Source of the DNA: Candidatus Binataceae bacterium
GTDB taxonomy: Bacteria; Desulfobacterota; Binatia; Binatales; Binataceae
Assembly: GCA_041491005.1 (NCBI GenBank)
Contig: JBGPUE010000002.1
Coordinates: forward strand, 17,218-81,217
Reading direction: 5' to 3'
DNA length: 64,000 nt
How positions within the stretch are numbered: position 1 is the first letter of the stretch; the number at the start of each line of letters is the position of its first letter. Of the stretch, positions 23,799 through 38,037 are shown one piece after another. Position numbers and translations under genes: made by a program. The notes beneath the pieces are model-generated. The model was not told where the DNA came from. It was given only the letters and a program-made list of their open reading frames with translations, and searched no databases.

Positions 23799-23964
23799 CG
23801 TGGGCGAATCTCCGGGAGAGCGATCTCATCGGATGCTTATGGATGTTTGGCCGATTCATCAGCGGCACGTAGCCGACCATGCTTATCCAATCCGGAGGAT
23901 GTATCTCAAGGAAGTGAACCGGTCCAGCCAATTGCCGCGCAACTTCGCTCGGGATCCCTGCGCT

Positions 23965-24336
23965 TTACGGCTCGCCGTTCGAGGTCGGCGTCGAATTTTC
24001 GACGCCCGTGCTGAGCGCACGCAGAGCATCGCCGAGACCGTTGGATGGCAAGTTCTCGCTGGCTCCGCCTTCATCTCCGCTCGCCGCATGCATGTGGATC
24101 GCGGACTGCACTTGGCTCTCCGATACCTTGACCTGCAGACCATCACCGCGCCGCAGCCGGTTTCGATCCTCACTGCTCATTGACTGATAGATCTGCGCAG
24201 CTTGCGCGCCTTGGCTGCGGTTCAAGGCTTCGACGAATTGCTGTTGGGGTGACGTCTGGTGCGAACACGCACCAAGCGCCGTCGCGGCCGCCAAGATGAG
24301 CGCGATCCGCTTGGATGATCGTCCGCGACGTGCGAC
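23965..24336 (-). CDS. hypothetical small lipoprotein
   Basis: Signal peptide with lipobox (KRIALILAAATALGAC) ahead of a Q/S-rich ~100-aa body. GTG start inferred; the longer ORF-finder version would overlap the start of the + strand gene. Confidence 0.35.
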   Translation of the reverse strand, partial: VARRGRSSKRIALILAAATALGACSHQTSPQQQFVEALNRSQGAQAAQIYQSMSSEDRNRLRRGDGLQVKVSESQVQSAIHMHAASGDEGGASENLPSNGLGDALRALSTGVENSTPTSNGEP

Positions 24337-24363
24337 TTTCGCCCCTGAAGGAGGACCAACCCG

Positions 24364-24786
24364 ATGGCGATGTCGAAGGAACATGTCGATCAACTCCTCT
24401 CCCAACCCAACATCGCGGTGGTGGCGGTCACCGCTCCCGACGGCCATCCGCATGCCGTCCCGACTTGGTACGAGTACCGCGATGGCGAGGTGGTCTTTCA
24501 CACCGCCGCCAGCGCGTTCAAGTACCGCTGCCTTCAACATGATAACCGCGTCGCGCTATGCGTCGATACCCGCGTGGCGCCCTGCAAGGCCGTGATCGTC
24601 AAGGGGCGCGCCTCGATGATCGAAACTATGGACGACGAGAGGCTTGAACGAATGTCGATCGCGTATCTTGGCGAGAAAGCCGGGCGCGCCTACGCGAAGA
24701 CGCTCAAGGGCCAGAAGATGGTCGTGGTGCGCTTCAAACCCACGCGAACCATCTCTTGGGATTACACGGGCGAACTACCGACATGA
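24364..24786 (+). CDS. Pyridoxamine 5'-phosphate oxidase family protein (PPOX class, putative F420-dependent)
   Basis: 140-aa split-barrel FMN/F420-binding fold pattern (NIAVVAVTAPDGHPHAVPTWYEYRDGEVVFHT...VALCVD). Confidence 0.6.
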   Translation: MAMSKEHVDQLLSQPNIAVVAVTAPDGHPHAVPTWYEYRDGEVVFHTAASAFKYRCLQHDNRVALCVDTRVAPCKAVIVKGRASMIETMDDERLERMSIAYLGEKAGRAYAKTLKGQKMVVVRFKPTRTISWDYTGELPT

Positions 24787-24850
24787 TAGAGGCGTGCGCC
24801 CGGAGACCAAGCCGCTTCAAGGTCGCATCGGATCCAGGGAGGAACGCGCG

Positions 24851-25858
24851 ATGCTAAGGACCAGGATTTGCGATTTGTTCGGAATCGAGTTGCCGATCAT
24901 CGGAGCCGGGATGGGTGGTGTCGCGATGGCGGAGTTGGCGGCGGCGATCTCCAATGCGGGCGGCCTCGGCACCCTTGGTCTGGGCGGGCTGCCTCCGGAA
25001 GTGATGCGCGCTCAGATCAAGGCCACACGCGAACTCACCGTAAAGCCGTTCGCAGTCAACCTCCTGGTTCCGTTGATGCCCCCCGGGGCGGTCGAGGCCG
25101 TGCTTGAGGCGGGCGCGCGAATCGTCACGTTCTTCTGGGGCGACTGCGACGACCGCGTCGCGAAGTGCAAACGCGCCGGCGCCAAAGTGATCTGGCATTG
25201 TGGATCACCTGAAGAAGCGGCGGCCGCTCGCGGCGCAGGTGTCGATGCAGTAATCGCGCAAGGCTTTGAGGCTGGTGGACATGTGCGCGGCACGACTACC
25301 ACGATGGCGCTGATCCCGCAGGTGCGCGATGCGATCGGCGATCTGCCGCTCATCGCAGCCGGCGGGATCGCGGACGGACGGGGCTTTGCCGCGGCTTTGG
25401 CGCTTGGCGCTGATGGCGCGGCGTTCGGCACACGCTTTCTGCTCGCGCACGAATGCCTCGCGCATGCGGACTATAAGCGAGCCATCTCAAGCGCCCGCTC
25501 CGAAGACACTCTTCACACCACGCTTTACGACATCGAATGGCCAAATGCGGCGCATCGTGTACTGCGCACGCCGCTGGTTAAGAGATGGGAAGACGCGGGC
25601 CGGCCCGCGTCGGGCAAACGTCCCGGCGAAGGTGAACAGGTCGGCAAGCTCAAGATGGGCGAAATCGAGGCGCCGCTGGTGCGCTATTCGGCGCAGCCTC
25701 CTGTCTCGTACTTCGAGGGCGATACCGGCGGGCTTGCATGGTATGCGGGCCAGTCATGCGCGCTGGTGCGCGAAGCGCTCCCGGCTGGCGAGATCGTCCG
25801 GCGCATCGCCGCCGAGGCGCGCGAAGTCATCGCAAAGCATCTGGCTCCGCTAGCGTGA
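24851..25858 (+). CDS. Nitronate monooxygenase / 2-nitropropane dioxygenase family (FMN-dependent, FabK-like TIM barrel)
   Basis: MLRTRICDLFGIELPIIGAGMGGVAMAELAAAISNAGGLGTLG is the canonical NMO N-terminus. Start moved to that Met. Confidence 0.8.
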   Translation: MLRTRICDLFGIELPIIGAGMGGVAMAELAAAISNAGGLGTLGLGGLPPEVMRAQIKATRELTVKPFAVNLLVPLMPPGAVEAVLEAGARIVTFFWGDCDDRVAKCKRAGAKVIWHCGSPEEAAAARGAGVDAVIAQGFEAGGHVRGTTTTMALIPQVRDAIGDLPLIAAGGIADGRGFAAALALGADGAAFGTRFLLAHECLAHADYKRAISSARSEDTLHTTLYDIEWPNAAHRVLRTPLVKRWEDAGRPASGKRPGEGEQVGKLKMGEIEAPLVRYSAQPPVSYFEGDTGGLAWYAGQSCALVREALPAGEIVRRIAAEAREVIAKHLAPLA

Positions 25859-25868
25859 CAGGATACCC

Positions 25869-26222
25869 TTGGCCGCTCGCCGCCATTCTGAGCCCTTCGA
25901 CTCCGTTCACGATAGACTGCGCGAAGAAAGCCCGGCGTGGGACGTGGAATACTACGTATACATAGTGAGCAGCCCGTCGCGCGCGCTATACACAGGCGTC
26001 ACGAACGACATCGTACGCCGAGTCGATGAGCATAGGCGTGGAGAGGGAAGCCGCTTCGCCAAAAGGTACCGGATCACTCGGCTCGTCTATGTTGAAGAGA
26101 CTGATAGCCTTGAGGCGGCGATCGCTCGAGAGAAGCAGCTCAAGGGCTGGGTTCGCACCAGAAAGATTAGGCTGATCGAATCCTTGAACCCAGAGTGGAA
26201 CGACCTCATCGAGCAGAGGTGA
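25869..26222 (+). CDS. GIY-YIG nuclease family protein (small, stand-alone)
   Basis: YYVYIVSSPSRALYTGVTNDIVRRVDEHRRGEG... matches the GIY-(x10)-YTG(V/I)T motif with downstream R and E. A MITE-like repeat sits immediately downstream. Confidence 0.7.
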   Translation: MAARRHSEPFDSVHDRLREESPAWDVEYYVYIVSSPSRALYTGVTNDIVRRVDEHRRGEGSRFAKRYRITRLVYVEETDSLEAAIAREKQLKGWVRTRKIRLIESLNPEWNDLIEQR

Positions 26223-26255
26223 CCAATGCTTGACCCGTCACCCCGGCAGTGAGAT

Positions 26256-26361
26256 CCGGGATTCTTCGCTTCGCTCAGAATGACGACAACCGTAGCGAAG
26301 CCCCGATCTCGCTTCCTGGCCCTCCAATTTTCGTCATTCTGAGCGAAGCGAAGAATCCCGG
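26256..26361. mobile_element. MITE/REP-like element: perfect 31-bp inverted repeats flanking a 44-bp spacer
   Basis: ccgggattcttcgcttcgctcagaatgacga (26256..26286) and tcgtcattctgagcgaagcgaagaatcccgg (26331..26361) are exact reverse complements. Same core as the 18651 element. Confidence 0.7.
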
Positions 26362-26450
26362 TGTCTTTCGTCTGCCACGCATCAAGTAACTCGACGCTGT
26401 GGCGGCGCCGATTCGTTTCGCAAGGCCGTATCGTCTGCGATAATCCGCGC

Positions 26451-27500
26451 ATGGCGAAGGCAGTGCCGATGGAGGCGGTGGTCGAGGCGCTGGGGAAGAT
26501 AAAATACCCTGGCTACAGCACCGACATCCTCACGCTCGGATTGATCGACGATCTCGCCGCGACGCCGGATGGCGGTTTCAAGCTCACGCTCCGCCAGGCG
26601 ACCGAACGCGACGAGCTGATGCGCGAACTCGCCAGCGCGATCCATCGCGAACTCACGCATGACCTCGGCATCGCCAACCTCGAGCTCAAGGTGCGGCGGC
26701 TCGAGCCCGAACTCGGCGAGAAGACCGGCAAAGTCAGGCTCGAAGGCGTCCGTCATGTAATCGCCGTCGCCAGCGGCAAGGGCGGCGTCGGCAAATCGAC
26801 GGTCGCAGCGAACCTCGCTGTCGCGCTGAGCCAACTCGGGCATAAGGTCGGCCTGCTGGATGCCGACATCTATGGGCCGTCGGTGCCGATGATGTTCGGC
26901 ACGGGTGAGATGCGCCCGAAATCGAAGGACGGCCGCACCTTCTACCCGATTGAGATGCACGGATTGAAGCTGATCTCGATCGGCTTCTTCCTGGGCGAGA
27001 AGGCGCCGATCATCTGGCGCGGTCCGATGGTAATGGGGGCAGTGAAGCAGTTCCTCAAGGACGTTATCTGGGGTGAGCTGGACTTTCTGGTCGTCGATCT
27101 GCCGCCCGGCACCGGCGATGCGCAGTTGACGCTTGCGCAGCAGGTCTATCTGGACGGCGCGGTCATTGTCACCACGCCCCAGGATGTCGCGGTGCTTGAC
27201 GCGGAGCGGGCGGTCAAGATGTTCCGGCAGGTGCATTGCCCGATGCTCGGCGTGGTCGAGAACATGAGCTACTTCGTATGCTCTGATTGTGGCGAGCGCG
27301 CCGAATTGTTCGGCGCGGGCGGCGGAGAGCGGATGGCGAAGACGGAAGAGATGGAATTGCTGGCGCGGCTGCCGCTGTATTCCGAGCTGCGCGAGGCGGG
27401 CGACGCCGGCCTGCCGATCGCGATCGCGCATCCCGACCATCCGGCCAGCAAGGCCTTCGTTGAGCTTGCCAAACGGGTCATCGCCCAGATGAGCCGCTAG
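26451..27500 (+). CDS. apbC: Mrp/NBP35 family iron-sulfur cluster carrier ATPase (ApbC)
   Basis: N-terminal MIP18-like domain, Walker A (GKGGVGKST) and CxxC motif (CSDCGE). Start set at MAKAVPMEAV; the ORF-finder start lies inside the repeat element. Confidence 0.85.
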   Translation: MAKAVPMEAVVEALGKIKYPGYSTDILTLGLIDDLAATPDGGFKLTLRQATERDELMRELASAIHRELTHDLGIANLELKVRRLEPELGEKTGKVRLEGVRHVIAVASGKGGVGKSTVAANLAVALSQLGHKVGLLDADIYGPSVPMMFGTGEMRPKSKDGRTFYPIEMHGLKLISIGFFLGEKAPIIWRGPMVMGAVKQFLKDVIWGELDFLVVDLPPGTGDAQLTLAQQVYLDGAVIVTTPQDVAVLDAERAVKMFRQVHCPMLGVVENMSYFVCSDCGERAELFGAGGGERMAKTEEMELLARLPLYSELREAGDAGLPIAIAHPDHPASKAFVELAKRVIAQMSR

Positions 27501-27650
27501 CGGGCAACCCCCCTTGCTCATGCGCCAAGCCGCCGTTATTCTTCCCGACTAATTGATCGGAACTGAAAGGCAAGACCGCTTCATTCGGCGCTGCCCGCGG
27601 CCGAACCTCCCAGCCGCTCCATAACGATACAAGGAACGCTTTGAAACGGG

Positions 27651-27986
27651 ATGTCCACGCTTATCACCGAGGAATGCATCAACTGCGGCGCCTGCGAGCC
27701 GGAGTGTCCCAACACCGCGATTTACGAGGGTGGCGCGCAATGGGAACTGGAGGGCGCGACTCATCCCGCGATCAAGGAAGACATCTATTATATTGTCCCG
27801 GACAAATGCACTGAATGTGTCGGCTTCTTCGATCAGGAGCAGTGCGCTGCGGTATGTCCGGTGGACTGCTGCGTGCCCGATCCCAACATCCCGGAGAGCG
27901 AAGAAGTGCTGATCGAGCGCGCAAAGAAGATGCATCCGGATCAGGCCTTCAGCGCGGACTTTCCTTCGCGTTTCAGAAAAAAGTGA
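27651..27986 (+). CDS. Ferredoxin (2x[4Fe-4S] type, YfhL-like)
   Basis: [12 protein letters not shown] and [18 protein letters not shown] cysteine clusters. Confidence 0.8.
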
Positions 27987-28204
27987 CCGCGCTTGCACCG
28001 GGGGTGAGGTGAAGAAGAGCGGGAGGAATCGGAGCGACGGAGTCGCGCAGGCATCGAGCCCGGCAAGCGTGGGGCCGCTGTTTACATCGCGGGACCGCTC
28101 CGATACAAGGCACGAGAGCCTGCGTTTGGCTATGGGGGCGCGGGCTGGTGTGTGCGCCGCATCAACGGGGGAGCGGAGCGCCGTCCCTGAACTGAGTGGG
28201 TGGA

Positions 28205-29308
28205 ATGTCCAAGATTAGGGTGGCAATCGCTGGTGTCGGCAACTGCGCCTCGTCGCTGTTGCAGGGAATCGAGCACTACAAACACGCTCCGCTCAACGAG
28301 AAGGAACCGCCGATCGGCCTGATGCACTACGATCTCGGCGGCTACCGGCCCGGCGACATCGAGGTCGCTTGCGCATTCGACGTCGATGCGCGCAAGGTCG
28401 GCCGTCCGCTCGAGGAAGCCTGCTTTGCGCCGCCCAACAACACGCTGACCATCTGGCCCGACCTGCCGGAATACGGCGTCCATGTGGACATGGGCGAGAT
28501 TCACGACGGGATCGCCGAGCACATGTCTGCCTATCCGCCTGAGCGCTCTTTTGTGGCCGCCAAGGAGCCGCCGGTCAATATCGAGAAGCGGCTCAGCGAT
28601 ACTGGCGCTGAGGTACTGCTCTGCTATCTGCCGGTCGGCAGCCAGAATGCCGTCGAGCGATACACCCGCGCATGCCTCGCCACTGGCGTCAGCCTGCTCA
28701 ACTGCATGCCGGTATTCATCGTTTCCACCGAGAAGTGGGCCAAGCAGTTCAGCGAGCGCGGCATCCCGGCGATTGGCGACGACGTCAAATCGCAGCTTGG
28801 CGCGACGATCCTGCATCGCACGGTGATGCGCCTGTTCGCCGAGCGGGGCATCAAGATCCGCCACACCTATCAGCTCAATACCGGCGGCAACACCGACTTT
28901 CTCAACATGCTCGATCGCAAGCGGCTGGGGTCCAAGCGCGTCTCCAAGACCGAGGCGGTGCAGAGCGTGCTCGCCGATCCGATGCCCGCCAACGATGTCC
29001 ACATCGGCCCGTCTGACTACGTTCCGTGGCAGAAGGACAACAAGGTCTGCTTCATCCGCATCGAGGGTGAGGGCTTCGGTGGCGTGCCGGTCGAGCTGGA
29101 GGCACGCCTGTCGGTCCAGGATTCGCCCAACTCCGGCGGCATCGTGATCGATGCGATCCGCTGCTTGCGCCTGGCGCGCGATCGCAAGATCGGCGGCCCG
29201 CTGTACTCGATGTCGGCCTATTCGATGAAGCATCCGCCGCAGCAGATGATCGACGACGTCGCACGCGAACGGGTCGAGAAGTTCATCGCCGGCGAACTCG
29301 AGCGCTAG
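28205..29308 (+). CDS. ino1: myo-inositol-1-phosphate synthase (archaeal/bacterial short type)
   Basis: MSKIRVAIAGVGNCASSLLQGIEHYK is the characteristic MIPS N-terminus. Rossmann fold plus C-terminal catalytic domain, ~368 aa. Confidence 0.8.
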   Translation: MSKIRVAIAGVGNCASSLLQGIEHYKHAPLNEKEPPIGLMHYDLGGYRPGDIEVACAFDVDARKVGRPLEEACFAPPNNTLTIWPDLPEYGVHVDMGEIHDGIAEHMSAYPPERSFVAAKEPPVNIEKRLSDTGAEVLLCYLPVGSQNAVERYTRACLATGVSLLNCMPVFIVSTEKWAKQFSERGIPAIGDDVKSQLGATILHRTVMRLFAERGIKIRHTYQLNTGGNTDFLNMLDRKRLGSKRVSKTEAVQSVLADPMPANDVHIGPSDYVPWQKDNKVCFIRIEGEGFGGVPVELEARLSVQDSPNSGGIVIDAIRCLRLARDRKIGGPLYSMSAYSMKHPPQQMIDDVARERVEKFIAGELER

Positions 29309-29480
29309 CCGACTTTTCTTCTTCCAGTCCCCTTTGCATGAGTCTCCTCATTCCCTCTCCCTGTCCGGGGAGAGGGTAGGGCGAGGGTTCTGTCTGCGGT
29401 CTTGAACGTTAGGGTCTCCTTATGGCCCGCGCCGCGCTATCTTCCGTATCGCATTCGGGTGCGCCTAGAATCAGGCGGCG

Positions 29481-30710
29481 ATGGTGCTTAAGGACAAGCG
29501 AATCCTGGTTGGAGTCAGCGGCGGCATCGCGGCTTACAAGGCGGCCGAACTGATCCGCCAGCTCGTTAGTCGCGGCGCGAACGTCCGCGTCATGATGACG
29601 CGAAACGCGGCCGAATTCATCACACCGCTGACGTTGCAGACGCTCAGCGCCAATCCGGTTGCGAGCGATACCTTCAGCCTCACGCAGGAATCCGAAATCG
29701 GCCACATCCGGCTCGCCGACACCTCCGATGCGATCGTGATTGCACCTGCGACTGCTGACGTGATTGCCAAGGCCGCGGTCGGCATCGCTGACGACATCGT
29801 CACAACTGTGCTGCTCGCGGCGCAATGCCCGATCGCGTTTGCGCCCGCGATGAACGTCCACATGTACGCTCATCCTACGGTCACCGAGAACCTCGCGAAG
29901 CTCGCCGCGCGCGCCGTCACTATCATCGAACCGGGCGAGGGCGCGCTGGCCTGCGGCTACGAGGGCAAGGGCAGGATGGCCGAGCCGGCCGACATCGTCG
30001 AAGAGCTCGAGCGGATGCTCTCCGCGCATGATCTTGCCGGCGAACGCGTACTGGTCACTGCAGGCCCGACTCAGGAAGCGATCGATCCGGTGAGATTCGT
30101 CTCGAATCGTTCGTCGGGCAAGATGGGTTTCGCGATCGCGCGGGCTGCATGGCGCCGTGGCGCCGAGGTCCGCATCGTAGCGGGACCCAGCGCGCTGGCT
30201 ACGCCTCGCGGTGTCGAGCGGATCGATACCGTAAGCGCGGCCGAGATGTTGCGCGCGACGGCAGAGAACTTCCCGTGGTGCACGGTGCTGGTGATGGCGG
30301 CGGCGATTGCCGACTTCCGCCCGGCTCGTCCGTCAGCGCATAAGGTCAAGAAGAATTCGCGCGGGATGAGCCTCGAAATGACCGCGATCGCCGATGAGCT
30401 GCCGCGGCTGGCCGCGCGCAAGGGCAACCGCGTGCTAGTCGGCTTCGCGGCGGAGACCGAAGATCTCGAGCGCAACGCCGCGGACAAGCTGCGCCGCAAG
30501 AAGCTCGATCTGATTGTCGCCAACGACGTGATGGCCGAGGGCGCCGGCTTCGGCGTCGATACCAACATCGTCACTGTGATCGGCGCCGATGGGAGTTCGC
30601 GCAGCCATCCGATGCTGCCCAAGGACGAGGTCGCCGACCTGATCCTCGATCGAGTTGCGACGATGCGCAGCGTCCGCACGAAGGTCCGTGCACTCAGAGC
30701 CGTCCGCTAG
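29481..30710 (+). CDS. coaBC: Bifunctional phosphopantothenoylcysteine decarboxylase / phosphopantothenate-cysteine ligase
   Basis: Flavoprotein N-domain (KRILVGVSGGIAAYKAAELIRQL) and DFP ligase C-domain (VSNRSSGKMG...KKK). The stop overlaps the left direct repeat of the insertion. Confidence 0.9.
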   Translation: MVLKDKRILVGVSGGIAAYKAAELIRQLVSRGANVRVMMTRNAAEFITPLTLQTLSANPVASDTFSLTQESEIGHIRLADTSDAIVIAPATADVIAKAAVGIADDIVTTVLLAAQCPIAFAPAMNVHMYAHPTVTENLAKLAARAVTIIEPGEGALACGYEGKGRMAEPADIVEELERMLSAHDLAGERVLVTAGPTQEAIDPVRFVSNRSSGKMGFAIARAAWRRGAEVRIVAGPSALATPRGVERIDTVSAAEMLRATAENFPWCTVLVMAAAIADFRPARPSAHKVKKNSRGMSLEMTAIADELPRLAARKGNRVLVGFAAETEDLERNAADKLRRKKLDLIVANDVMAEGAGFGVDTNIVTVIGADGSSRSHPMLPKDEVADLILDRVATMRSVRTKVRALRAVR

Positions 30711-30739
30711 GAGCCGCCCCGGCATGAGTTCCGCGCCGC
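30699..30739 (+). repeat. Left copy of a ~41-bp imperfect direct repeat (coaBC stop + UDG start codon region)
   Basis: gccgtccgctaggagccgccccggcatgagttccgcgccgc versus gccgcccgctaggagcgcgtcgcgatgagttccgcgccgc at 33222..33261. Shares gcc-g-ccgctaggagc and atgagttccgcgccgc, i.e. the first 5 codons of the UDG gene. Confidence 0.8.
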
Positions 30740-30857
30740 TCCCCCACGACGAGGAATCGCGAACCCCGCTGAGATGCACGGTCTACTTTTGCCGAAACTG
30801 ATGTCGGGCGAGGTGCGCGTACGCTACGCCGAGCACATGATGGGGGGAGACCGACGG

Positions 30858-33161
30858 ATGATCAACAAGTTGCGGTTGCTTAGGAACATTGGGCAGTTCG
30901 ACTCGGTCGATAGCGCTGCGACCATCGCGTTAAATTGACTCACCCTGATCTACGCAGAGAACGGGAGAGGAAAGACAACCCTCGCTGCCGTGCTCCGGTC
31001 GCTCGGGACCGGCGATCCGATTCCGATCATGGAACGACGCAGACTTGCGGCCCAGCGCGCTCCACACGTCGTCATCGAGTGCGATGGAGGACCGCCGTCT
31101 GCGATGTTCGAGAACGGTGTGTGGAACCGCACGTTACCGAACATGGTCGTGTTTGACGACCTATTTGTTGACCAGAACGTCTACTCGGGTTTGGCGGTCG
31201 GGGCAGAACACCGGCAGAACCTGCACGAGCTCATCCTAGGTGCCCAGGGCGTGACCCTCAACACGAAGCTTCAAGGGTTGGTCGAGCGCGTCGAGGAGCA
31301 TAACGCTGCGTTGAGGAACAAAGCGGCCGCCATACCTCCGGCAGAGCGCGGCGCGCTGTCAGTTGACGAGTTTTGCTTGCTCCCGCCACGGACGGACGTA
31401 GACGAAGCGATACAAGCTACCGAGCGCATGCTAGCGGCGGCGCGCGAACAAGCCCCAGTTCGGAACGCTTCCCTCTTCGACCCGCTGAGCCTTCCGGCTT
31501 TCGATGTCGCGGCCACTGACCGCGTCCTTCAGAAAGACTTGGCCACGCTCGATGCGGCGGCGGCGGCTCGCGTCCAAGCGCATGTGGCAGGACTGGGTCC
31601 AAGCGGTGAAACGTGGATTGCTGAAGGAATGCGCCGTCTCCCGCGGGCGGCTCCAGGCGCGGGAACGGCCATCTGCCCATTCTGCGGGCAGGATCTGGCC
31701 GGCGCGCCCCTTATTGCCCACTACCGGGCCTACTTTAGCGCTGGCTACGCCGACCTTAAGCGTAAGGTTTCGGAGGCTCTTGCAGAGATAAACCGCACGC
31801 ACGGGGCCGATGTGCCAGCGGCGTTTGAACGCTCGATCAGGGTGGCTGTGGAGCGGCGGCAGTTCTGGTCACGGTTCTGCGATGTACCCGACCTCGTCGT
31901 GGATACGGCCACGATTGTGCGCGATTGGCGCGCTGCCCGCGAGGCCGTCATCGCGGCGCTTACCTCGAAGCAGGCAGCGCCGCTGGAGCGCAAGACACTT
32001 GCGGCGGAGGGCCAGGCAGCGGTCGCGTTATACCACACTCATCGCGACAGGATTGCGGCTCTCAGCGGCGCGCTCGTGAAGACAAATGCTTCTATCCGAC
32101 TGGTCAAAGAGCAGGCGGCAGTGGCCAACCCGCAACTCATCGCTTACGATCTCTCTCGCCTCAAGGCGGTCAAGGCCCGCCACAGCCCAGGCATCGCAGC
32201 GCTTTGCGATGGCTATCTGGCGGAGAAGGCCGCCAAGGCGCAAACAGAGCAGCAACGGGACCAAACCCGAGCGGTGTTGGACCAGTACAGAATGAACGTG
32301 TTTCCGGGATACCAGACTGCGGTCAACCTTTATCTACAACGATTCAATGCGGGGTTTCGGCTCGACAGTGTGACTCCCGTCGACACTAGGGGAGGCCCGG
32401 CTTGCACGTACAACTTACTGATCAACGACATACCCATCGCCGTCGCGGGAGCGCCCCCTTCGCCTGGCGAGCCTTCATTCCGCAACACCCTGAGCTCGGG
32501 CGACCGCAATACACTTGCGCTCGCCTTCTTTTTCGCTTCCCTTGACCAAGATCCGGGACTCGCAAACAAAGTCGTTGTGATCGACGACCCGATCTCAAGC
32601 CTTGACGATCATCGCTCGCTAACCACCGTGCAGGAGATACGAGACCTCGCGAAACGCGCCGGCCAGGTCATCCTGCTCTCCCATAGTAAGCCGTTCCTAT
32701 GCCGCACTTGGGAGCGGGTCGATCCTTCGACCCGTACCGCGCTCCAGGTAGCCCGCGACAACCTTGGCTCGACCATTCGCTCCTGGGACGTGGACGAGGA
32801 CTGTATCACTGACCACGATCGGCGCCACGCCACTATGCGCGAGTACCTTGCCAATGGCATGCCGAACAATCGGGAAGTCGCCGGATCAATTCGCCCTCTG
32901 CTGGAAGCGTTTCTTCGCGTAGCTTGCCCGGAGCATTTTCTTCCAGTAACGAAGCTTGGACAATACCATGACCTGTGTAGGCAGCGCGTAGGCACGCCCC
33001 AGCAGATCCTCGATACGAGCGCGACTGCGGAACTAGGCAAACTGATCGAATACCCGAATAGATTTCATCACGACACGAACCAGGCGTGGGAGACCGAGAC
33101 TATCAATGAGACTGAGCTGGCAGGCTTCGTCCGGAGAGCAATGAGTTTCGCCAAACGGTGA
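30858..33161 (+). pseudogene. AAA_13/RloC-like Rad50-type ABC ATPase with CXXC zinc hook, disrupted by an in-frame TGA at 30936..30938 (possible anticodon-nuclease/abortive-infection type module)
   Basis: ATG at 30858 has a strong SD (ggggggag) and encodes MINKLRLLRNIGQFDSVDSAATIALN-TGA-LTLIYAENGRGKTT. This is the typical AAA_13 N-terminus with the stop sitting where a conserved residue (W or K) precedes the P-loop. Downstream: ~450 aa of coiled-coil-like sequence with a central CPFCGQ zinc hook, ABC signature (LSSGDRNTLALAFFFA), Walker B/D-loop (VVVIDDPISSLDD), H-loop (LLSHSKP) and a ~170-aa C-terminal domain. Lower GC3 than the host genes. Confidence 0.6.
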
Positions 33162-33221
33162 GCCCGTGACCAGTGGCCACTTCAGTGAGTCCGACGTGGA
33201 AGACGCCGCCCTAGCATCCGG

Positions 33222-33261
33222 GCCGCCCGCTAGGAGCGCGTCGCGATGAGTTCCGCGCCGC
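33222..33261 (+). repeat. Right copy of the ~41-bp direct repeat
   Basis: See 30699..30739. Here the ATG is the genuine start of the UDG gene. Confidence 0.8.
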
Positions 33262-34061
33262 CGCTGGACCGCAAGATCGTGCTGGCCACGATGCGCGATT
33301 ACGTCGAGCAATTGCGCGAGGAAGGACTCGAAGGGCTGCCCGCGAGCGAAGCTGTAGCGCCCGTCCTCGTGTCGGCCGCGTCCCGCGCTATGCAGCCTCC
33401 TGCTGCGGCGCTCAAAGCTCCGTCAGCAGCTGGCGCGCCCGCGGAGGAGCTCTTTTCGCCGTACCCCGGATTGGAGCAGACTGCGGAACTGGGTGCGTTG
33501 CGCGCCTTTATCGGCGATTGCCAACGATGCAAGCTCGCGCCGACCCGCACGAACCTCGTCTTCGGGATCGGCAATCCGCATGCGGAATTGGTCTTCGTCG
33601 GCGAAGCGCCGGGCGCGGACGAAGATGCGCAAGGCGAACCGTTCGTCGGGCGCGCGGGCCAGCTACTGACCGATATTATCGAGCGCGGCATGGGAGTGAA
33701 GCGCGCTGACGTTTACATCTGCAACGTGATCAAGTGCCGCCCGCCGGGCAATCGCAATCCTGAGCCCGACGAAGTCGCGGCCTGCCAGCCCTTCCTGTTC
33801 CGCCAGATCGATTTGATCAAGCCGCGCGCGATCGTAGGCCTCGGCAGTTTCGCAGTGCAGGCGCTGCTGCGCGTCAAGACGCCGATCGGCAAGTTGCGGG
33901 GCGCCTGGCAGGAGGTGCGCGGTGTCCGCATGATGCCGACCTTTCATCCTGCATACCTGCTGCGCACTCCCGGCGACAAGCGGCTGGTGTGGAGTGATAT
34001 ACAAGAAGTTATGAGGGAACTGGGGTGGCCGATTCCAAAGCGTGGCGGACCGGCGGCATGA
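33246..34061 (+). CDS. Uracil-DNA glycosylase, family 4
   Basis: [23 protein letters not shown] and a downstream HP motif (TFHPAYLLR) are family-4 UDG signatures, 271 aa. Confidence 0.85.
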
Positions 34062-35383
34062 GGCGCACGTGGCTGCCAATCGCGCTGGTGCTGGCGATCG
34101 CCGCTTTGCCATCGGACGGCGCGGCTGCGGTCGCGAGCACTCCAGCCCGCGGCGAGAGCTCGCGTGGCTCGGTTGTTTTAATCCGTATCAACGGTTCGAT
34201 TAATCCAGCCGTCGTGGCCTATATCGAAGACTCGCTCGATGCCGCCAACAAAGAGGGCGCAAGCGTGCTGGTGATCCAGCTCGATACTCCCGGCGGCCTG
34301 CTCAATTCCACCCAACGCATCGTGAAGGACTTGTTAGGTTCGGCGGTGCCCGTGATCGTCTATGTCGCGCCATCGGGCGCCAGTGCCGCATCGGCCGGCA
34401 TGTTCATCACCGAGGCGGCGAACATTGCCGCGATGGCGCCGGGCACGACGATCGGTGCGGCCCATCCGGTGGAGAGTGGCGGCGGCGAGCCCAACGCCGT
34501 GATGGGCAAGAAGATCGAGAACTTCGCCGCATCGTTCGCCAAGACCGTCGCGCAGGAGCGTGGGCACAATCCGCAATGGGTGGAAGACGCCGTGCGCAAC
34601 AGCGCCGCGATCGGCGACCGCGAAGCATTGTCGCAGCATGTGGTCGATATCGTCGCGCGCGATCTCACCGACCTGCTGCTGCAATCCACCGGCGTTGAAG
34701 TGAAGCTCGGCGAGCGCAAGATCACCCTGATGCTCACTGGCGCCGCCGTGCACGAGCGCACGATGAGCCTAGCGCAGCGTTTTCTCAACGCGCTGGCCGA
34801 TCCCAATCTGGTTTATCTGCTGCTGATGGGCGGTCTTATCGGGCTGTATTTCGAGTTCGCCCATCCTGGGGTCTACATGCCCGGCGTCGCAGGTGCGATC
34901 TGCCTGCTGCTCGCATTGACTTCATTTCAGGTGCTGCCGATCAACCTTTCGGGGCTGCTGCTGCTGCTGCTCGGTGTCGGCCTGCTGATTTCGGAGGCGT
35001 TCCTGACCAGCTACGGGATTCTCGGGATCGGCGGGATCGTGGCATTCGTGATCGGTTCGCTCTTCCTGATCGACGGTGCACAGACCACAATGGCGGTCAG
35101 CCGCGGGCTGATCGCGGGCGCGGCGCTGGCGCTGACCGCAATCATCGTTGGACTGGGCTACCTGATCGTCCACGATCGCCGCGGCCAAGCCGCCACCGGC
35201 CGCGAAGGGCTGATCGGCGAGGTCGGCGAAGTCCGGGATCTAATCGCGCCGGGCGTCGCGGGACGAATCTTCGTGCACGGCGAGCATTGGCGCGCAGTGG
35301 CCGACGAGCTGATCGCATCGGGCGAGCGCGCGCAGGTGACGGCGGTTCACGGGATTGAAGTCGAGGTGCGGCGGATCAGCTAG
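34058..35383 (+). CDS. nfeD: NfeD family membrane-bound serine protease
   Basis: Signal peptide, ClpP-like fold region (VLVIQLDTPGGLL), a C-terminal multi-TM region and an OB-fold. Followed by an SPFH gene, the classic nfeD-stomatin operon. Start set at [10 protein letters not shown]. Confidence 0.8.
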   Translation: MRRTWLPIALVLAIAALPSDGAAAVASTPARGESSRGSVVLIRINGSINPAVVAYIEDSLDAANKEGASVLVIQLDTPGGLLNSTQRIVKDLLGSAVPVIVYVAPSGASAASAGMFITEAANIAAMAPGTTIGAAHPVESGGGEPNAVMGKKIENFAASFAKTVAQERGHNPQWVEDAVRNSAAIGDREALSQHVVDIVARDLTDLLLQSTGVEVKLGERKITLMLTGAAVHERTMSLAQRFLNALADPNLVYLLLMGGLIGLYFEFAHPGVYMPGVAGAICLLLALTSFQVLPINLSGLLLLLLGVGLLISEAFLTSYGILGIGGIVAFVIGSLFLIDGAQTTMAVSRGLIAGAALALTAIIVGLGYLIVHDRRGQAATGREGLIGEVGEVRDLIAPGVAGRIFVHGEHWRAVADELIASGERAQVTAVHGIEVEVRRIS

Positions 35384-35407
35384 CGCGGAATCCGCGCGAG
35401 CGCCCGC

Positions 35408-36205
35408 ATGGAGGCAACTATGGCTGGCGGTGTTGGCATCGTGATCCTGATTGGCGTGATGTTCGTGCTCAGCGGACTCAAGGTGTTGCGCGAGTACGAG
35501 CGCGCGGTGATCTTCCGCCTCGGCCGGCTGACGCCGTATCGCGGGCCAGGACTCATCTTCATCATTCCGATTCTCGAACGCGCGGTGCGAATCGACGTCC
35601 GCACGATCACGATCGAGATTCCGCCGCAAGACGTGATCACGCGCGACAACGTCACGGTAAAAGTTAGCGCAGTGCTCTACTTCCGCGTGATCGACGCGTC
35701 GCGAGCCGTCGTCGAGGTCGAGAACTATCTGTTCGCCACGATGCAGCTGGCGCAAACCACGCTGCGCTCGGTCGGCGGGCAAACCGAACTCGACGACCTG
35801 CTGAGCCAGCGCGAGAAGGTCAACGCGCGCATCCAGGAGATCGTCGATGCGCAGACCGAACCGTGGGGCATCAAGGTGACGCTGGTCGCGCTCAAGAACA
35901 TCGACCTGCCCCAGGACATGCAGCGCGCGATCGCCGCGCAGGCCGAGGCCGAACGCGAGCGCCGCGCCAAGATCATTGCCGCCGAGGGTGAGTTCCAAGC
36001 CGCGCAGAAGCTCTCCGAGGCGGCCGAGATCATGGCGCACAACCCGATCACGCTGCAGTTGCGCTACCTGCAGACGCTTGCCGAGATCGCGACCGAGCAC
36101 AACTCCACAACGATCTTCCCCGTGCCGATCGATCTGTTCGAGCCGTTCATCCAGATGCGCCGCGCGGCCAACACCGCTGCACCGCCCGGCAAACCCAACC
36201 CGTAA
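35408..36205 (+). CDS. SPFH/band-7 (stomatin-like, slipin) family protein
   Basis: N-terminal TM, then an SPFH domain ([13 protein letters not shown]...[32 protein letters not shown]) and a coiled-coil C-terminus. Confidence 0.85.
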
Positions 36206-36272
36206 CCGATTGCGCCCAGAGCCCGAAACCGGCTAGCTTGCGCGCGCGTTCAGATCTCAAACGAGGTGAGCT

Positions 36273-36677
36273 GTGGAAGTCGCAAAGGATTCGATTGACC
36301 TCGGGATCGTCGTGACCGATGAAAACGCCGCGCTCGCATTCTATCGCGACGGGTTGGGCATGGAGGATGCCGGCAATCTTATGCTGCCCGGCGGCCGGAT
36401 GTATCGCCTGATGTGCGGCACCACCGTGATCAAGCTGCTTAAGCTCGACAAGACGCCCGATGTGAAACCGGCTGGCGGCGGCCCGATGGGCGGGCTCGGT
36501 CTGCGCTATTTCACGATCACGGTGCCCGACATCCACGCTCTGATGGCGCGTCTGGAGCAAAAGGGGATCAAGCCGCTGATGCGGGTGACGGAATTCCGTC
36601 CCGGCGTGACGATCGCGATGGTTGCCGATCCGGACGGCAACACTGTCGAGTTCCTGCAGCAGGCCGCCGCGAACTGA
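36273..36677 (+). CDS. VOC (glyoxalase/bleomycin-resistance/dioxygenase) family protein
   Basis: 134 aa with paired beta-alpha-beta-beta-beta module pattern (IDLGIVVTDENAALAFYRDGLGM...RYFTITVPDIHAL). Confidence 0.6.
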   Translation: MEVAKDSIDLGIVVTDENAALAFYRDGLGMEDAGNLMLPGGRMYRLMCGTTVIKLLKLDKTPDVKPAGGGPMGGLGLRYFTITVPDIHALMARLEQKGIKPLMRVTEFRPGVTIAMVADPDGNTVEFLQQAAAN

Positions 36678-36680
36678 GCC

Positions 36681-37259
36681 GTGGGGAAACTGATCCTCGT
36701 CCGCCACGGCGAGAGCGAGGGCAACGTGGTTCGGGTCTTTACCACCACCCCGATGGAGCTGCCGCTGACTGATCTCGGCCGGCGGCAGGCGCGCGCAGCG
36801 GCGGATAAAATCGCGCGGCTTTTCAAACCCGAATTGGTGGTCGCGAGCTCATACATTCGCGCGCGCCACACCGGCGAGATAATCGCGAGCGCTCTCGACC
36901 TGCCGATCGAAATCGAACACGAGTTGCACGAGCGCGACATGGGCGGGCTGGTCGGTAAACCCTACGACGCCATCGTCGACGATCCGGCATACGACCCCAA
37001 GCGGCCGTGGGAGTGGAAGCCGCCGGGTGGGGAAACCCTCGAGGAGGTTCGCGCCCGCACCGCACCGGTGCTCGATCGCCTGGCTGCACAGCATGCCGGC
37101 CGCGAAATCGTGGTCGTGAGCCACGGCGGCGTGATGGCGGCATTGTGGGCGCATGTCACAGGCAGCTGGGAAGATGCGCACGTACTGCCCAACGCCGGTA
37201 TCGTGCTGATCGAGCATAGCGCCGGCCGATACCTGCGACCCGGCGTTGTCACGGACTGA
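36681..37259 (+). CDS. Histidine phosphatase family protein (phosphoglycerate-mutase-like)
   Basis: LILVRHGESEGN (RHG catalytic motif) and downstream SHGG motif (VVSHGGV). Confidence 0.8.
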   Translation: MGKLILVRHGESEGNVVRVFTTTPMELPLTDLGRRQARAAADKIARLFKPELVVASSYIRARHTGEIIASALDLPIEIEHELHERDMGGLVGKPYDAIVDDPAYDPKRPWEWKPPGGETLEEVRARTAPVLDRLAAQHAGREIVVVSHGGVMAALWAHVTGSWEDAHVLPNAGIVLIEHSAGRYLRPGVVTD

Positions 37260-37318
37260 CGCGCGACCAACCCGCTGCCGGCGCAGCTGTCTCAGACCTT
37301 GCCGCTCTCGGTGTCGTA

Positions 37319-37612
37319 TCAGCGCTTGCGCCGCGGGCGCTTGGGCTTGGGCCGCCATCGCCCGCCCGGTCCGTAGCTGGAGACCGGCCCGAGCACGTCG
37401 GTGTAACGCCATTCCTTGATTTCCGCTTCGGGATGACGCGCGCGCCATGCTTCGATCCATCCGGCCCGGCTGCGGGCGCGTCCTGCCTCGACTTGGAACT
37501 GGGATCGGTCGTCACGCAACAGGACGATCTTGCCAACACGATGGACGAAGACCCGCACCAGCGTCCAGTCCTCCAACAGAATGCGGAGCTGGCCGGTCTC
37601 TTCGTCCCTCAA
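37319..37612 (-). CDS. hypothetical small basic protein
   Basis: 97-aa ORF with a strongly basic tail (KPKRPRRKR). No recognisable family. Coding status uncertain. Confidence 0.25.
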   Translation of the reverse strand: MRDEETGQLRILLEDWTLVRVFVHRVGKIVLLRDDRSQFQVEAGRARSRAGWIEAWRARHPEAEIKEWRYTDVLGPVSSYGPGGRWRPKPKRPRRKR

Positions 37613-38037
37613 GACAATGCATCCCTCGCCGACCCGGCCTAGCAGGCGCCAGCTGGATGAGGTTCCAGCACGGCGGCGCGCAGGGCCGCGCGCTTCACCG
37701 CGCGCCTATCGAGAGAGGTCGGCGATCGTTGTCGAAATGCTCAGACACTGGCCTTCAAGCGTCAGGCGCCCTATGACACTAGAGCGCCAGTTGCGGAAGG
37801 CTGGCAATGGGCAGAACGAAACTGGGAATAGCTATCGGTGTTGAAGTTGGTATTTGTTGTAACTGTTAAGTAACACACTGTAGAGCAAGCCTGGTCGTGA
37901 CAGGAGTGTGATGGGCGTAGTCCGGCACGACTGAGCTGTGTTCCCCATGGTCAAACGCATGATCATACCCAACCAAGAGTTGTTGGTATTACACACAATG
38001 GCTTGCTCGCTTAGTGAAAACCGGTCCGAAGGCGCGC

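What the first reader, a model, noticed from the sequence alone, without database searches (positions are those of the whole stretch)
30699..33261. Single-gene RloC-like ABC-ATPase cassette inserted between coaBC and the UDG gene with a ~41-bp target duplication
The coaBC stop and the first five codons of the uracil-DNA glycosylase gene (ccgctaggagc...atgagttccgcgccgc) occur twice, at 30699..30739 and 33222..33261. The ~2.5 kb between them carries one gene and nothing else. This looks like a precise insertion of a foreign cassette into the short coaBC-UDG junction, with the left repeat leaving an orphan 26-codon UDG start (MSSAPLPHDEESRTPLRCTVYFCRN). The cargo is a Rad50-like ABC ATPase (P-loop, ~450-aa coiled-coil-like insert with a central CPFCGQ zinc hook, signature LSSGDRNTL, D-loop, H-loop) plus a ~170-aa C-terminal domain. 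That architecture is the one described for the RloC/PrrC-type anticodon nucleases (Pfam AAA_13) that act as suicide/defense modules. No integrase, transposase or restriction-modification partner accompanies it. By eye the cassette uses A/T-ending codons (tta, cta, ata, aaa) far more than the flanking genes, consistent with recent horizontal acquisition. A solitary RloC-like gene delivered by an unknown insertion mechanism with a 41-bp duplication would be worth characterising.
Basis: partly seen in the sequence, partly recalled or inferred. Interest (0 to 1): 0.8.

Follow-up and report, generated by a model that had tools for sequence, protein, structure and literature searches.

The report
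Dead RloC gene, restriction-operon fragment
A 2.5-kb piece cut from a foreign type I restriction-modification operon, carrying an RloC-type anticodon-nuclease defence gene now disabled by one stop codon, sits between two housekeeping genes of an uncultured Binataceae bacterium; it is a decaying relic of a known kind, and only how it was inserted remains unexplained.

Summary
The repeat is real but imperfect. It spans 30690-30739 and 33214-33261, with 42 of 51 aligned columns identical and exact blocks of 11 and 16 nt. The composite pattern occurs twice in the window and never in 100 shuffles.

The insert (30740-33213, 2,474 bp) is not one gene and nothing else. It is an internal fragment of a type I R-M operon:
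- a 39-codon hsdS tail with a 1-nt deletion;
- a complete RloC-like gene;
- the first 16 codons of hsdR.

The spacings match those in intact hsdS-rloC-hsdR operons of the closest homologues (78-79% identity).

All five assemblies checked at that site carry the TGA, which is an ordinary stop in this genome. The rest of the ORF is undecayed.

Relatives have coaBC and UDG adjacent. No empty site from the same species could be found, and the insertion mechanism is unresolved. This is a recently inactivated new member of a known kind, of modest interest.

The parts
29481..30710 (+). coaBC (host gene, intact); ends ...LRAVR*
   Evidence: NCBIfam TIGR00521 at 452 bits. The C-terminus LRAVR* is shared across Binataceae relatives.
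30690..30739 (+). Left copy of the junction repeat. It holds the authentic coaBC tail with its stop, an AGGAG Shine-Dalgarno, a 9-nt linker, and an orphan copy of UDG codons 1-5.
   Evidence: Exact blocks lie at 30704-30714 and 30724-30739.
30724..30801 (+). Orphan 25-codon ORF. UDG codons 1-5 are fused in frame to the hsdS-tail relic.
   Evidence: Translation.
30740..30857 (+). hsdS 3' relic of about 39 codons (...EESR / AEMHGLLLPKLMSGEVRVRYAEH...), with a 1-nt deletion after 'EESR'.
   Evidence: tblastx to the HsdS C-termini of L086 and L088. tblastn hits on plasmids are annotated 'restriction endonuclease subunit S'. Comparison with L176 shows the frameshift. The motif is unique in the window and lies 72 nt from the ATG, as in intact operons.
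30858..33161 (+). RloC-like ABC-ATPase/HEPN anticodon-nuclease gene. It would be 767 codons if read through; it is a pseudogene.
   Evidence: Pfam AAA_13. PADLOC PDC-S06 at 4e-57. 2,247 homologues, those listed nearly all 760-780 aa; JGI names many, including the window's own gene call, 'wobble nucleotide-excising tRNase'.
30936..30938 (+). In-frame TGA at codon 27. Homologues have Arg, so CGA>TGA is inferred.
   Evidence: present in L081-L085; Arg in 108/117. TGA is a normal stop in 5 of 10 neighbouring genes.
30963..30980 (+). Walker A (GRGKTT, residues 36-41), downstream of the stop codon
   Evidence: invariant or nearly so in 117 homologues.
31674..31685 (+). CPFC zinc-hook motif (residues 273-276), in the loop between the helical arms
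   Evidence: C-P-F-C in 117/117 homologues. In the proxy model it sits in a non-helical break within the helical insert, residues 120-495.
32490..32588 (+). ABC signature LSSGD (residues 545-549) through Walker B/D-loop VVVIDDPISSLD (from residue 572)
32790..33158 (+). C-terminal HEPN-fold nuclease domain. It carries R679 (32892-32894), E683 (32904-32906) and H737/H738 (33066-33071).
33166..33213 (+). hsdR 5' relic, first 16 codons (VTSGHFSESDVEDAAL)
   Evidence: Direct comparison with the HsdR N-termini of L086, L088, L173 and L176. The motif is unique in the window and lies 20 nt after the rloC stop, as in intact operons.
33214..33261 (+). Right copy of the junction repeat. It holds a diverged, non-functional coaBC-tail copy (reads IRAAR* in that frame), the functional Shine-Dalgarno, an 8-nt linker, and the true UDG start.
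33246..34061 (+). Family-4 uracil-DNA glycosylase (host gene, intact)
   Evidence: NCBIfam TIGR00758 at 202 bits.

Best explanation
The 2,474 bp between the repeats (30740-33213) are the middle of a foreign type I restriction-modification operon of the form hsdM-hsdS-rloC-hsdR. What remains is the last ~39 codons of hsdS, a whole rloC-type gene, and the first 16 codons of hsdR.

Intact family members are Rad50-like ABC ATPases. They have a zinc-hook coiled coil that controls a C-terminal HEPN anticodon nuclease. By homology with Geobacillus RloC, they shut down translation as a suicide or defence response.

In this Binataceae genome the fragment landed in the very short spacer between coaBC and the UDG gene. 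A ~50-bp copy of the junction on each side keeps coaBC's stop codon and UDG's ribosome-binding site and start intact.

The gene is no longer functional. A CGA-to-TGA change at codon 27 stops translation before the P-loop. Any re-initiated product would lack Walker A, which is required for nuclease activation in GkaRloC. The rest of the ORF is undecayed, so the inactivation is recent. A plausible cause (inferred) is that an anticodon nuclease orphaned from its R-M partner is harmful or useless.

Shown: anatomy, family, nonsense codon, foreign origin, non-random repeat.

Inferred: loss of function, the reason for inactivation, and the insertion route. The mismatch pattern of the repeat favours a crossover inside the identical 16-mer with DNA that carried a diverged copy of the same junction. 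It does not favour a freshly made target-site duplication.
For: Anatomy:
- DNA homology to intact operons runs exactly 30846-33163 at 77%.
- The HsdS-tail and HsdR-head motifs are each unique in the window, with 0 in 200 shuffles. They lie 72 nt before the ATG and 20 nt after the stop, matching L086, L175 and L176.
- The hsdS tail hits annotated HsdS genes.

Context of homologues:
- hsdM-hsdS-rloC-hsdR in L086, L173 and L176; an hsdS...rloC...hsdR arrangement in L088.
- Decayed hsd flanks in L175 and L185.

Family:
- AAA_13 at 98.8 bits and PDC-S06 at 4e-57.
- Motifs are invariant in 117 homologues.
- SMC/Rad50 fold hits at E about 3e-8.

Nonsense codon:
- five assemblies; Arg in 108/117; TGA is a normal stop here.
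- Only 4 of 191 conserved columns deviate, which is within the family range.
- Walker A Lys44 or Walker B Asp572 mutants of GkaRloC lose in vivo ACNase (PMC3458546).

Foreignness:
- coaBC and UDG are 6-7 nt apart in 8 loci and 46-63 bp apart in 4 loci.
- GC3 is 0.69 against 0.75-0.86.

Repeat:
-.
- All 9 differences lie 5' of the exact 16-mer, P=0.023.
Against: - No empty site from the same species or a close relative could be found. The next UDG relative is only 74-75% identical, so the insertion is inferred from distant synteny.
- Loss of function is inferred. Low-level TGA read-through or a function for a P-loop-less product cannot be excluded, and there are no expression data.
- The repeat copies are only 82% identical while the cargo ORF is nearly pristine. 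A simple 'recent insertion with target duplication' does not explain this.
- The source of a diverged second junction copy is unknown. No sampled Binataceae coaBC ends in IRAAR*.
- No recombinase gene was found within about 10 kb either side. The rest of the window was not scanned for one.
Confidence: 0.78

Rival explanations
1. Remnant of a larger integrative island. A complete type I R-M island with its own recombinase integrated site-specifically at the coaBC-UDG junction. The two repeat copies are then hybrid attL and attR sites, with the element carrying an imperfect mimic of the target. Later internal deletions removed everything except hsdS'-rloC-'hsdR.
For: - The direct repeats are imperfect. 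All differences lie on one side of an exact 16-mer, as expected for a single crossover between a host site and an element-borne look-alike.
- The right copy's coaBC-like part differs partly by synonymous or conservative codon changes (AGA>CGG Arg, CTC>ATC), as if it had evolved as coding sequence elsewhere (reading).
- L088 has a tyrosine integrase about 6 kb from its hsd-rloC operon.
Against: - No integrase, excisionase or other island gene remains within about 10 kb.
- Two independent deletions would each have to end exactly at the inner edge of an att repeat. No filler was detected between the repeats and the hsd relics.
- None of about 35 Binataceae relatives has mobile-element genes at this junction.
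Confidence: 0.12
2. A discrete mobile rloC mini-cassette. The unit [~115-nt hsdS tail]-rloC-[~50-nt hsdR head] is itself a mobile module with defined ends. It normally hops between hsd operons, bringing replacement gene ends. Here it landed off-target, generating a ~50-bp target duplication by an unknown trans-acting mechanism.
For: - The stubs recur with similar extents in independent loci. L175 has an hsdS tail of <=111 nt and an hsdR head broken at the same codon (...EDAALA|). L173 has an hsdR-head stub plus the real hsdR start about 250 nt further on, that is, a duplicated head. L088 has a stub, then other genes, then the real hsdR. L185 has both stubs.
- The window's nearest homologue (79%) is in an intact operon while L175 (73%) shares the breakpoints. 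The shared ends are therefore not simply inherited.
Against: - There are only 4-5 loci, and the endpoints are similar but not identical (hsdR head of 27, 48, 51 and >=75 nt).
- L175 shows no flanking repeat in the 70 nt available.
- L171/L172 is a solitary copy with no stubs.
- No terminal inverted repeats or recombinase were found.
- Selection for an intact rloC with its upstream signals, plus recombination within conserved hsd segments, could give a similar picture.
Confidence: 0.08
3. The gene is functional despite the TGA. Possible routes are leaky read-through or recoding that keeps a toxic nuclease at very low level, or a two-piece or N-terminally truncated protein that still works.
For: - The ORF shows no other defect: 4/191 conserved-column deviations and no frameshift.
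- The allele is fixed in all six contigs of the organism.
- RloC expression is self-limiting and toxic (PMC2610378), so very low expression could be tolerated or useful.
Against: - TGA is an ordinary stop in 5 of 10 neighbouring genes, including rloC's own.
- None of 117 homologues has a stop or unusual residue there; Arg occurs in 108.
- Any re-initiated product (GTG at 30990, or the 685-aa call) lacks Walker A, and Walker A mutation abolishes GkaRloC ACNase in vivo (PMC3458546).
- The hsdS relic upstream is frameshifted, so translational coupling is lost.
Confidence: 0.05
4. The flanking repeat is coincidental or an assembly artefact.
For: GC-rich sequence gives many short chance repeats; one search lists 18 families. 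Metagenome assemblies can create chimeras at repeats.
Against: - The composite pattern has 0 hits in 100 shuffles.
- The repeat sits exactly at the two ends of the foreign DNA.
- The same structure occurs in six contigs from independent assemblies by different pipelines (JGI, NCBI MAGs, Logan), including a 181-kb contig.
Confidence: 0.01

Closest known systems
RloC of Geobacillus kaustophilus HTA426 (Davidov & Kaufmann 2008, PMC2610378; Klaiman et al. 2012, PMC3458546)
   Same: - ABC-ATPase head split by a helical insert with a CX2C zinc hook.
- C-terminal Arg-X3-Glu...His anticodon-nuclease triad.
- Size within 658-897 aa.
- Found next to a cryptic hsd relic: GkaRloC lies beside the C-terminal half of an hsdR inside an IS4 transposon.
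   Different: - The sequence is too distant for phmmer or NCBIfam to link directly, so membership rests on Pfam AAA_13, motifs and fold.
- The Glu-to-His spacing is 53-54 residues, just outside the 36-52 reported in 2008.
- The window's copy has a nonsense codon before Walker A.
- No transposon is present. Relics of both hsdS and hsdR hug the gene, and it is bounded by a ~50-bp imperfect direct repeat of the target.
PrrC / EcoprrI (anticodon nuclease embedded in a type I R-M operon)
   Same: In the closest intact homologues (L086, L173, L176) the gene sits inside an hsd operon between hsdS and hsdR, as prrC does. It has an ABC ATPase N-domain and a HEPN nuclease C-domain.
   Different: PrrC is 341-416 aa and lacks the coiled-coil/zinc-hook insert. 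The PADLOC PrrC model matches only the ABC signature region (residues 546-613, E 1e-8). There is no PrrC box.
rlo genes in Campylobacter jejuni hsd loci (Miller et al. 2005, as cited in PMC2610378)
   Same: Accessory 'restriction-linked ORFs', including rloC, inserted between the genes of type I R-M loci.
   Different: The phylum is different. The primary paper is not in the searchable library, so no flanking-stub comparison could be made.
PADLOC candidate single-gene defence family PDC-S06
   Same: Full-length match to model PDLC04895 (E 4e-57, residues 1-686 of 767).
   Different: PDC-S06 is only a candidate class, listed in surveys. No functional test was found in the library.
Rad50 / SbcC / SMC / RecN housekeeping ABC ATPases
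   Same: Head-plus-coiled-coil fold (Foldseek E 3e-8 to 1e-5). CXXC hook as in Rad50.
   Different: There is an extra C-terminal HEPN nuclease domain and no Mre11/SbcD partner. Scores against SMC_N (22 against a cutoff of 40) and recF (26 against 172) are far below their cutoffs. The context is defence islands.

Membership tests
RloC (Davidov & Kaufmann 2008 definition) | [quoted passage not shown] | tested here: met
   GRGKTT 36-41, LSSGD 545-549, VVVIDDPISSLD from 572 and LLSHS 606-610 all lie in (near-)invariant columns of 117 homologues. In the window's copy they lie downstream of the stop codon.
RloC (Davidov & Kaufmann 2008 definition) | Helical (coiled-coil) insert splitting the ATPase domain, with a central CX2C zinc hook | tested here: met
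   C273-P-F-C276 occurs in 117/117 homologues. The AF2 model of the 79%-identical proxy P0002 has helices across residues 120-495, with the hook in a central non-helical break. The best PDB matches are SMC and Rad50 heads with coiled coils. Zinc binding is not testable here.
RloC (Davidov & Kaufmann 2008 definition) | C-proximal Arg-X3-Glu-X36-52-His catalytic triad | tested here: met
   R679-X3-E683 and H737/H738 are invariant in 117/117. The Glu-to-His spacing is 53 or 54, one or two residues beyond the range tabulated in 2008 from 72 orthologues (PMC2610378). This is counted as met with a minor deviation.
RloC (Davidov & Kaufmann 2008 definition) | Size 658-897 aa | tested here: met
   767 codons when read through the TGA. 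Nearly all listed homologues are 760-780 aa.
RloC (Davidov & Kaufmann 2008 definition) | Wobble-nucleotide-excising tRNase activity, activated by its ATPase | not testable with these tools
   This needs biochemistry. The window's allele is predicted to be inactive, because the stop precedes Walker A and GkaRloC K44 and D572 mutants lack ACNase (PMC3458546).
Pfam AAA_13 (PF13166) | Score above the gathering threshold | tested here: met
   98.8 bits against a cutoff of 36, E 4.5e-28.
HEPN superfamily (RloC/PrrC nuclease domain, Anantharaman et al. 2013) | All-alpha HEPN fold of the C-terminal domain | tested here: met
PrrC | Short (341-416 aa) ABC-HEPN protein without a coiled-coil insert, with a PrrC box, always inside a type I R-M locus | tested here: not met
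   The protein is 767 aa with a ~375-aa helical insert. The PADLOC PrrC model aligns only to residues 546-613.
SbcC/Rad50/RecN/RecF housekeeping ATPases | Profile score above the family cutoff | tested here: not met
   SMC_N scores 22.3 bits against a cutoff of 40. recF TIGR00611 scores 26 against 172. There are no PDB sequence hits at E<0.01.
Transposon-type target-site duplication | Short, perfect direct repeats flanking an element with terminal inverted repeats and a transposase | tested here: not met
   The repeat is 48-50 nt and 82% identical. No transposase gene lies within about 10 kb, and the insert ends are hsd gene fragments.
Integrase-mediated genomic island (attL/attR) | Direct repeats of the target plus a site-specific recombinase gene in the island, often at a tRNA or gene 3' end | tested here: inconclusive
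   Imperfect direct repeats at a gene 3' end are present. No recombinase is present, there is no tRNA nearby, and relatives have no element at this site.
Type I R-M operon fragment | Flanks homologous to the HsdS C-terminus and the HsdR N-terminus, at the spacing seen in intact hsdS-rloC-hsdR operons | tested here: met

The most novel reading that the evidence does not exclude
The unit [hsdS tail ~115 nt]-rloC-[hsdR head ~50 nt] is a discrete, self-contained mobile defence cassette. It carries replacement gene ends. It moves between (and occasionally out of) type I R-M operons by a still unknown, recombinase-in-trans or template-switch mechanism that duplicates ~50 bp of the target. The window would be an off-target landing of such a cassette.
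Probability: 0.08. Interest if true: 0.6.

Novelty: new member of a known kind. Interest (0 to 1): 0.3.

Why it matters
As it stands, this is a tidy example of defence-gene decay. An anticodon nuclease was torn out of its restriction-modification operon, placed between two housekeeping genes in a poorly known phylum (Binatota), and silenced by one point mutation while everything else is still intact. That fits the view that RloC/PrrC-type suicide nucleases are costly once uncoupled from their R-M partner.

It also extends the RloC family, with a tested HEPN fold, to a large clade of environmental 767-aa proteins that usually sit between hsdS and hsdR.

One point could matter more. Very short hsdS and hsdR stubs recur around rloC in several unrelated loci, and here an imperfect ~50-bp target repeat has no recombinase nearby. 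Together these hint at an uncharacterised way in which single defence genes are shuffled into and out of R-M operons.

Tried and rejected
**Searches for an empty site**
- Exact-protein look-ups of the window's CoaBC, UDG and 723-aa ORF found nothing on record.
- The genome-contig scan with CoaBC gave a best hit of 82%.
- The metagenome-contig scan with UDG gave a best hit of 75%.
- The UDG search of 5.8 billion proteins found nothing between 100% and 74%.
- All contigs carrying the exact UDG also carry the cassette.
- No empty-site allele is therefore obtainable.

**Is the coaBC-UDG interval a hotspot for mobile or defence genes?** Rejected. The genes found there in relatives are metabolic or envelope genes: luciferase-like monooxygenase, CoA-transferase, phospholipase C, LptD/LptE, an MFS transporter, an OprB porin and arginase. 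They are shared within clades.

**Homology beyond the repeat on the inner flanks.** Such homology would indicate long homologous arms. Scores were no better than shuffles.

**A relative's coaBC end matching the right repeat copy.** None was found.

**Other negative results**
- tblastn of the 20-aa hsdR stub against plasmids gave no match because the query is too short. It was replaced by direct alignment and a motif scan.
- L175 has no flanking repeat around its solitary copy, with only 70 nt of left flank available.
- There is no tRNA or Rfam feature near the cassette, and no promoter or terminator signal above chance.
- PDB sequence search gave no hits.
- The window has no resident hsd genes and no second cassette copy.

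The intact homologue P0002 served as proxy for the full length, and the window's own sequence was used for the C-domain.
- The afdb50 fold library was unavailable.

**Recoding of the TGA.** Rejected, because TGA is a common stop here.

Full report
**1. Observation**

CCGCTAGGAGC lies at 30704-30714 and 33227-33237. ATGAGTTCCGCGCCGC lies at 30724-30739 and 33246-33261. The composite pattern CCGCTAGGAGC-N8/9-ATGAGTTCCGCGCCGC occurs exactly twice in the 64-kb window and in none of 100 dinucleotide-preserving shuffles.

It is not a clean 41-bp duplication:
- The linker between the blocks differs: CGCCCCGGC against GCGTCGCG.
- The similarity extends further 5', giving 30690-30739 against 33214-33261 with 42 of 51 aligned columns identical.
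- There is no similarity beyond these limits on the inner flanks; scores equal the shuffles.
- All nine differences lie 5' of the exact 16-mer (P=0.023).

**2.

Translation of 30699-33161 shows an in-frame TGA at 30936-30938, codon 27 of the ATPase (...TIALN*LTLIYAENGRGKTT...). This is nine codons before Walker A. The ORF finder therefore lists only 30990-33161, which starts after the P-loop. The public gene calls for this organism are a 54-aa and a 685-aa fragment.

- The TGA is present in all five assemblies that include this site, from JGI, NCBI and Logan.
- These assemblies differ from the window at 55 sites over 22 kb, so they are not copies of one assembly.
- In 117 full-length homologues the codon is Arg in 108, so CGA>TGA is inferred.
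- TGA ends 5 of the 10 neighbouring genes, including rloC itself, so it is an ordinary stop here.
- Apart from this codon the ORF is pristine. It has the same length as its homologues (767 codons) and no frameshift. Only 4 of 191 columns that are >=97% conserved deviate, and 29 of 117 intact homologues deviate at least as often.

**3. The flanks are hsd gene stubs**

Upstream of the ATG, the same frame reads ...AEMHGLLLPKLMSGEVRVRYAEH.... This matches the C-terminal tail of HsdS in the loci of the closest homologues (L086, L088) and in L176 (ESRRLAALRDLLLPKLISGELRV). In plasmid records it hits genes annotated 'restriction endonuclease subunit S'. Comparison with L176 shows that the relic runs back to 'EESR' at about 30749, with a 1-nt deletion. 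It therefore abuts the left repeat.

Four bases after the rloC stop, a GTG opens VTSGHFSESDVEDAAL. Compare the HsdR N-termini: (V)PGGEFKETHVEEAAL in L086, VNSGFAESELEEAAL in L088, MANFTESVVEDAAL in L173 and MSQSFTESVVEQAAL in L176. After 16 codons (33213) the right repeat begins.

The two motifs are each unique in the six-frame translation of the whole window, with none in 200 shuffles. They lie 72 nt before the ATG and 20 nt after the stop. The spacings in intact operons are 71-72 nt and 14-21 nt. The motifs were written after seeing the sequences, so this is a consistency check and not an independent test.

DNA-level homology to the intact operons covers exactly 30846-33163 at 77%. The insert is therefore hsdS'(39 codons)-rloC-'hsdR(16 codons), 2,474 bp.

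**4. Family and fold**

Sequence profiles:
- Pfam AAA_13 scores 98.8 bits against a cutoff of 36.
- SMC_N and recF profiles are far below their cutoffs.
- PADLOC gives a full-length match to the candidate single-gene defence family PDC-S06 (4e-57). The PrrC model matches only the ABC signature region.
- JGI names many homologues, including the window's own gene call, 'wobble nucleotide-excising tRNase'.

Criteria published for RloC (PMC2610378), with results:
- ABC motifs: present.
- CX2C hook: C-P-F-C in 117/117 homologues.
- Arg-X3-Glu...His: R679 and E683 in 117/117, H737 and H738 in 117/117. The spacing is 53-54 residues against the published 36-52.
- Size: 767 aa, within range.

Structure:
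- An AF2 model of the closest intact homologue (P0002, 79% identical, pLDDT 82) has a split head, a ~375-residue helical insert with the hook in a central break, and a helical C-domain.
- Its best PDB matches are SMC, cohesin and Rad50 heads with coiled coils, plus RecN and Lamassu LmuB.

**5. Function now**

In GkaRloC, single mutations of Walker A Lys44 or Walker B Asp572 abolish in vivo ACNase (PMC3458546). A product re-initiated after the TGA lacks Walker A entirely. The window's allele is therefore most likely dead. Because nothing else has decayed, it died recently. RloC is toxic and self-limiting when expressed (PMC2610378). Selection against an orphaned nuclease is a plausible cause, but this is inference.

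**6. Host and locus history**

The host is an uncultured Binataceae bacterium. No close relative exists in any collection searched. The next UDG is 74-75% identical, and every contig of the organism carries the cassette.

At greater distance, coaBC and UDG are directly adjacent: 6-7 nt apart in eight loci and 46-63 bp apart in four. Other clades have clade-specific metabolic or envelope genes in between, but no mobile or defence genes. The left repeat copy carries the family-typical coaBC end LRAVR*. The right copy would read IRAAR* and matches no sampled lineage.

GC3 of rloC is 0.69. This lies between the host genes (0.75-0.86) and the homologues in L086 and L088 (0.57-0.61). There is no tRNA, Rfam family, promoter or terminator signal, and no recombinase within about 10 kb. 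The window holds no other hsd gene.

**7. Context of the family**

Of the close-family loci with visible flanks:

| Locus | Context |
|---|---|
| L086, L173, L176 | intact type I operons hsdM-hsdS-(TIR)-rloC-hsdR |
| L088 | hsdS...rloC...DUF genes...hsdR |
| L170 | follows a type III-like mod/res pair and GmrSD |
| L185 | rloC between an HsdM N-fragment and an HsdR C-fragment, with both stubs retained |
| L175 | truncated hsdS tail, and an hsdR head broken at the same codon as in the window (...EDAALA\|), followed by housekeeping genes |
| L171/L172 | solitary copy without stubs |

In L173 and L088 a diverged hsdR-head stub follows rloC, and the real hsdR start lies further downstream. More distant plasmid homologues (47-54% identity) sit beside type II R-M systems, after a type I hsdR, or alone.

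Two things follow. Solitary rloC is normal: 8 of 73 are R-M-linked in PMC2610378. An hsd relic next to rloC has a precedent in G. kaustophilus. The tight clustering of stub endpoints is not explained.

**8. Mechanism of insertion (unresolved)**

A fresh target-site duplication should be perfect. Here the copies differ at 9 of 51 columns, all 5' of the identical 16-mer, while 2.3 kb of cargo ORF carries one substitution of note.

That pattern fits a single crossover within the 16-mer between the chromosome and DNA carrying a diverged copy of the same junction. Such DNA could be an att-like site, a Campbell-type integration, or homologous acquisition from a related lineage where the insertion first occurred. 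The source of that second copy is unknown.

A 3-nt microhomology (GCA) lies at the right junction, and hsdR's GCCGCCCTAG resembles coaBC's GCCGTCCGCTAG. Microhomology-mediated joining is therefore also possible.

**9. Verdict**

The feature is a recently inactivated RloC-type gene on a fragment of a type I R-M operon. It is a new member of a known kind with an unexplained insertion scar. Interest is modest at 0.3. The most novel reading, a discrete mobile rloC cassette, has a probability of about 0.08.

Noticed in passing
L173/L174 5886-6959 and 9301-9620: A TIR-domain gene (357 aa) is embedded between hsdS and rloC in an otherwise canonical type I operon. A diverged copy of the hsdR start (MSSFTESVVHNAAVAW) follows rloC, about 250 nt before the real hsdR start (MANFTESVVEDAALAW). 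The hsdR head is therefore duplicated.
   Followed up: partly
L088/L089 4221-5600: DUF6978 and DUF1828/DUF1829 genes lie between rloC (followed by an hsdR-head-like stub) and the real hsdR. These are further accessory genes inside an hsd operon. A tyrosine integrase lies about 6 kb downstream.
   Followed up: no
L086 12072-15051: The hsdM-hsdS-rloC-hsdR operon of the closest homologue (79%) lies near a large terminase, DUF5681 and a ParB-methyltransferase fusion. This suggests a prophage or phage-plasmid carrier. One related operon is on an IMG/VR viral contig (L176).
   Followed up: partly
L170 320-9304: A 71%-identical homologue follows GmrSD, an N6/N4 methyltransferase and a ResIII/RE_endonuc gene (type III-like). 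The same rloC clade therefore associates with different R-M types.
   Followed up: no
L171/L172 6400-9475: An intact solitary homologue in a Bryobacteraceae MAG lies between a DUF433-PIN toxin-antitoxin pair and a MacB transporter. It is surrounded by housekeeping genes (ATP synthase, DHDPS) and has no hsd stubs or flanking repeat.
   Followed up: partly
window 23553-38333 (compared with L081): Strain-level differences between the window and the 181-kb JGI contig are clustered: 24320-24756, 27563-27603 and 29720-29807 (the last inside coaBC). None lies within the 2,474-bp cassette. The pattern looks like recombination tracts in the population.
   Followed up: partly
L001-L041, L065, L077 (interval after coaBC): The coaBC-UDG interval is a synteny break-point in Binataceae. 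One clade holds a phospholipase-C-like gene, a luciferase-like monooxygenase and a CoA-transferase. Others hold LptD/LptE, an MFS transporter with an OprB porin, an arginase-family gene, or small ORFs of unknown function.
   Followed up: partly
window 10474-10548 (- strand): The only RNA gene detected in the window is a tRNA-Val(TAC). It is unrelated to the cassette.
   Followed up: yes
H1, NZ_CP147882.1 52413-52496 (Roseomonas mucosa plasmid): The best tblastn hit of the window's hsdS-tail peptide (68% over 28 aa, including the residues just before the rloC start) is annotated only as 'hypothetical protein'. It could be another hsdS tail or relic next to an rloC-like gene.
   Followed up: no
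window 34025-34061: The nfeD ORF as listed from its first possible start (GTG 34025) overlaps the 3' end of the UDG gene by 37 nt. JGI calls the same overlap.
   Followed up: no
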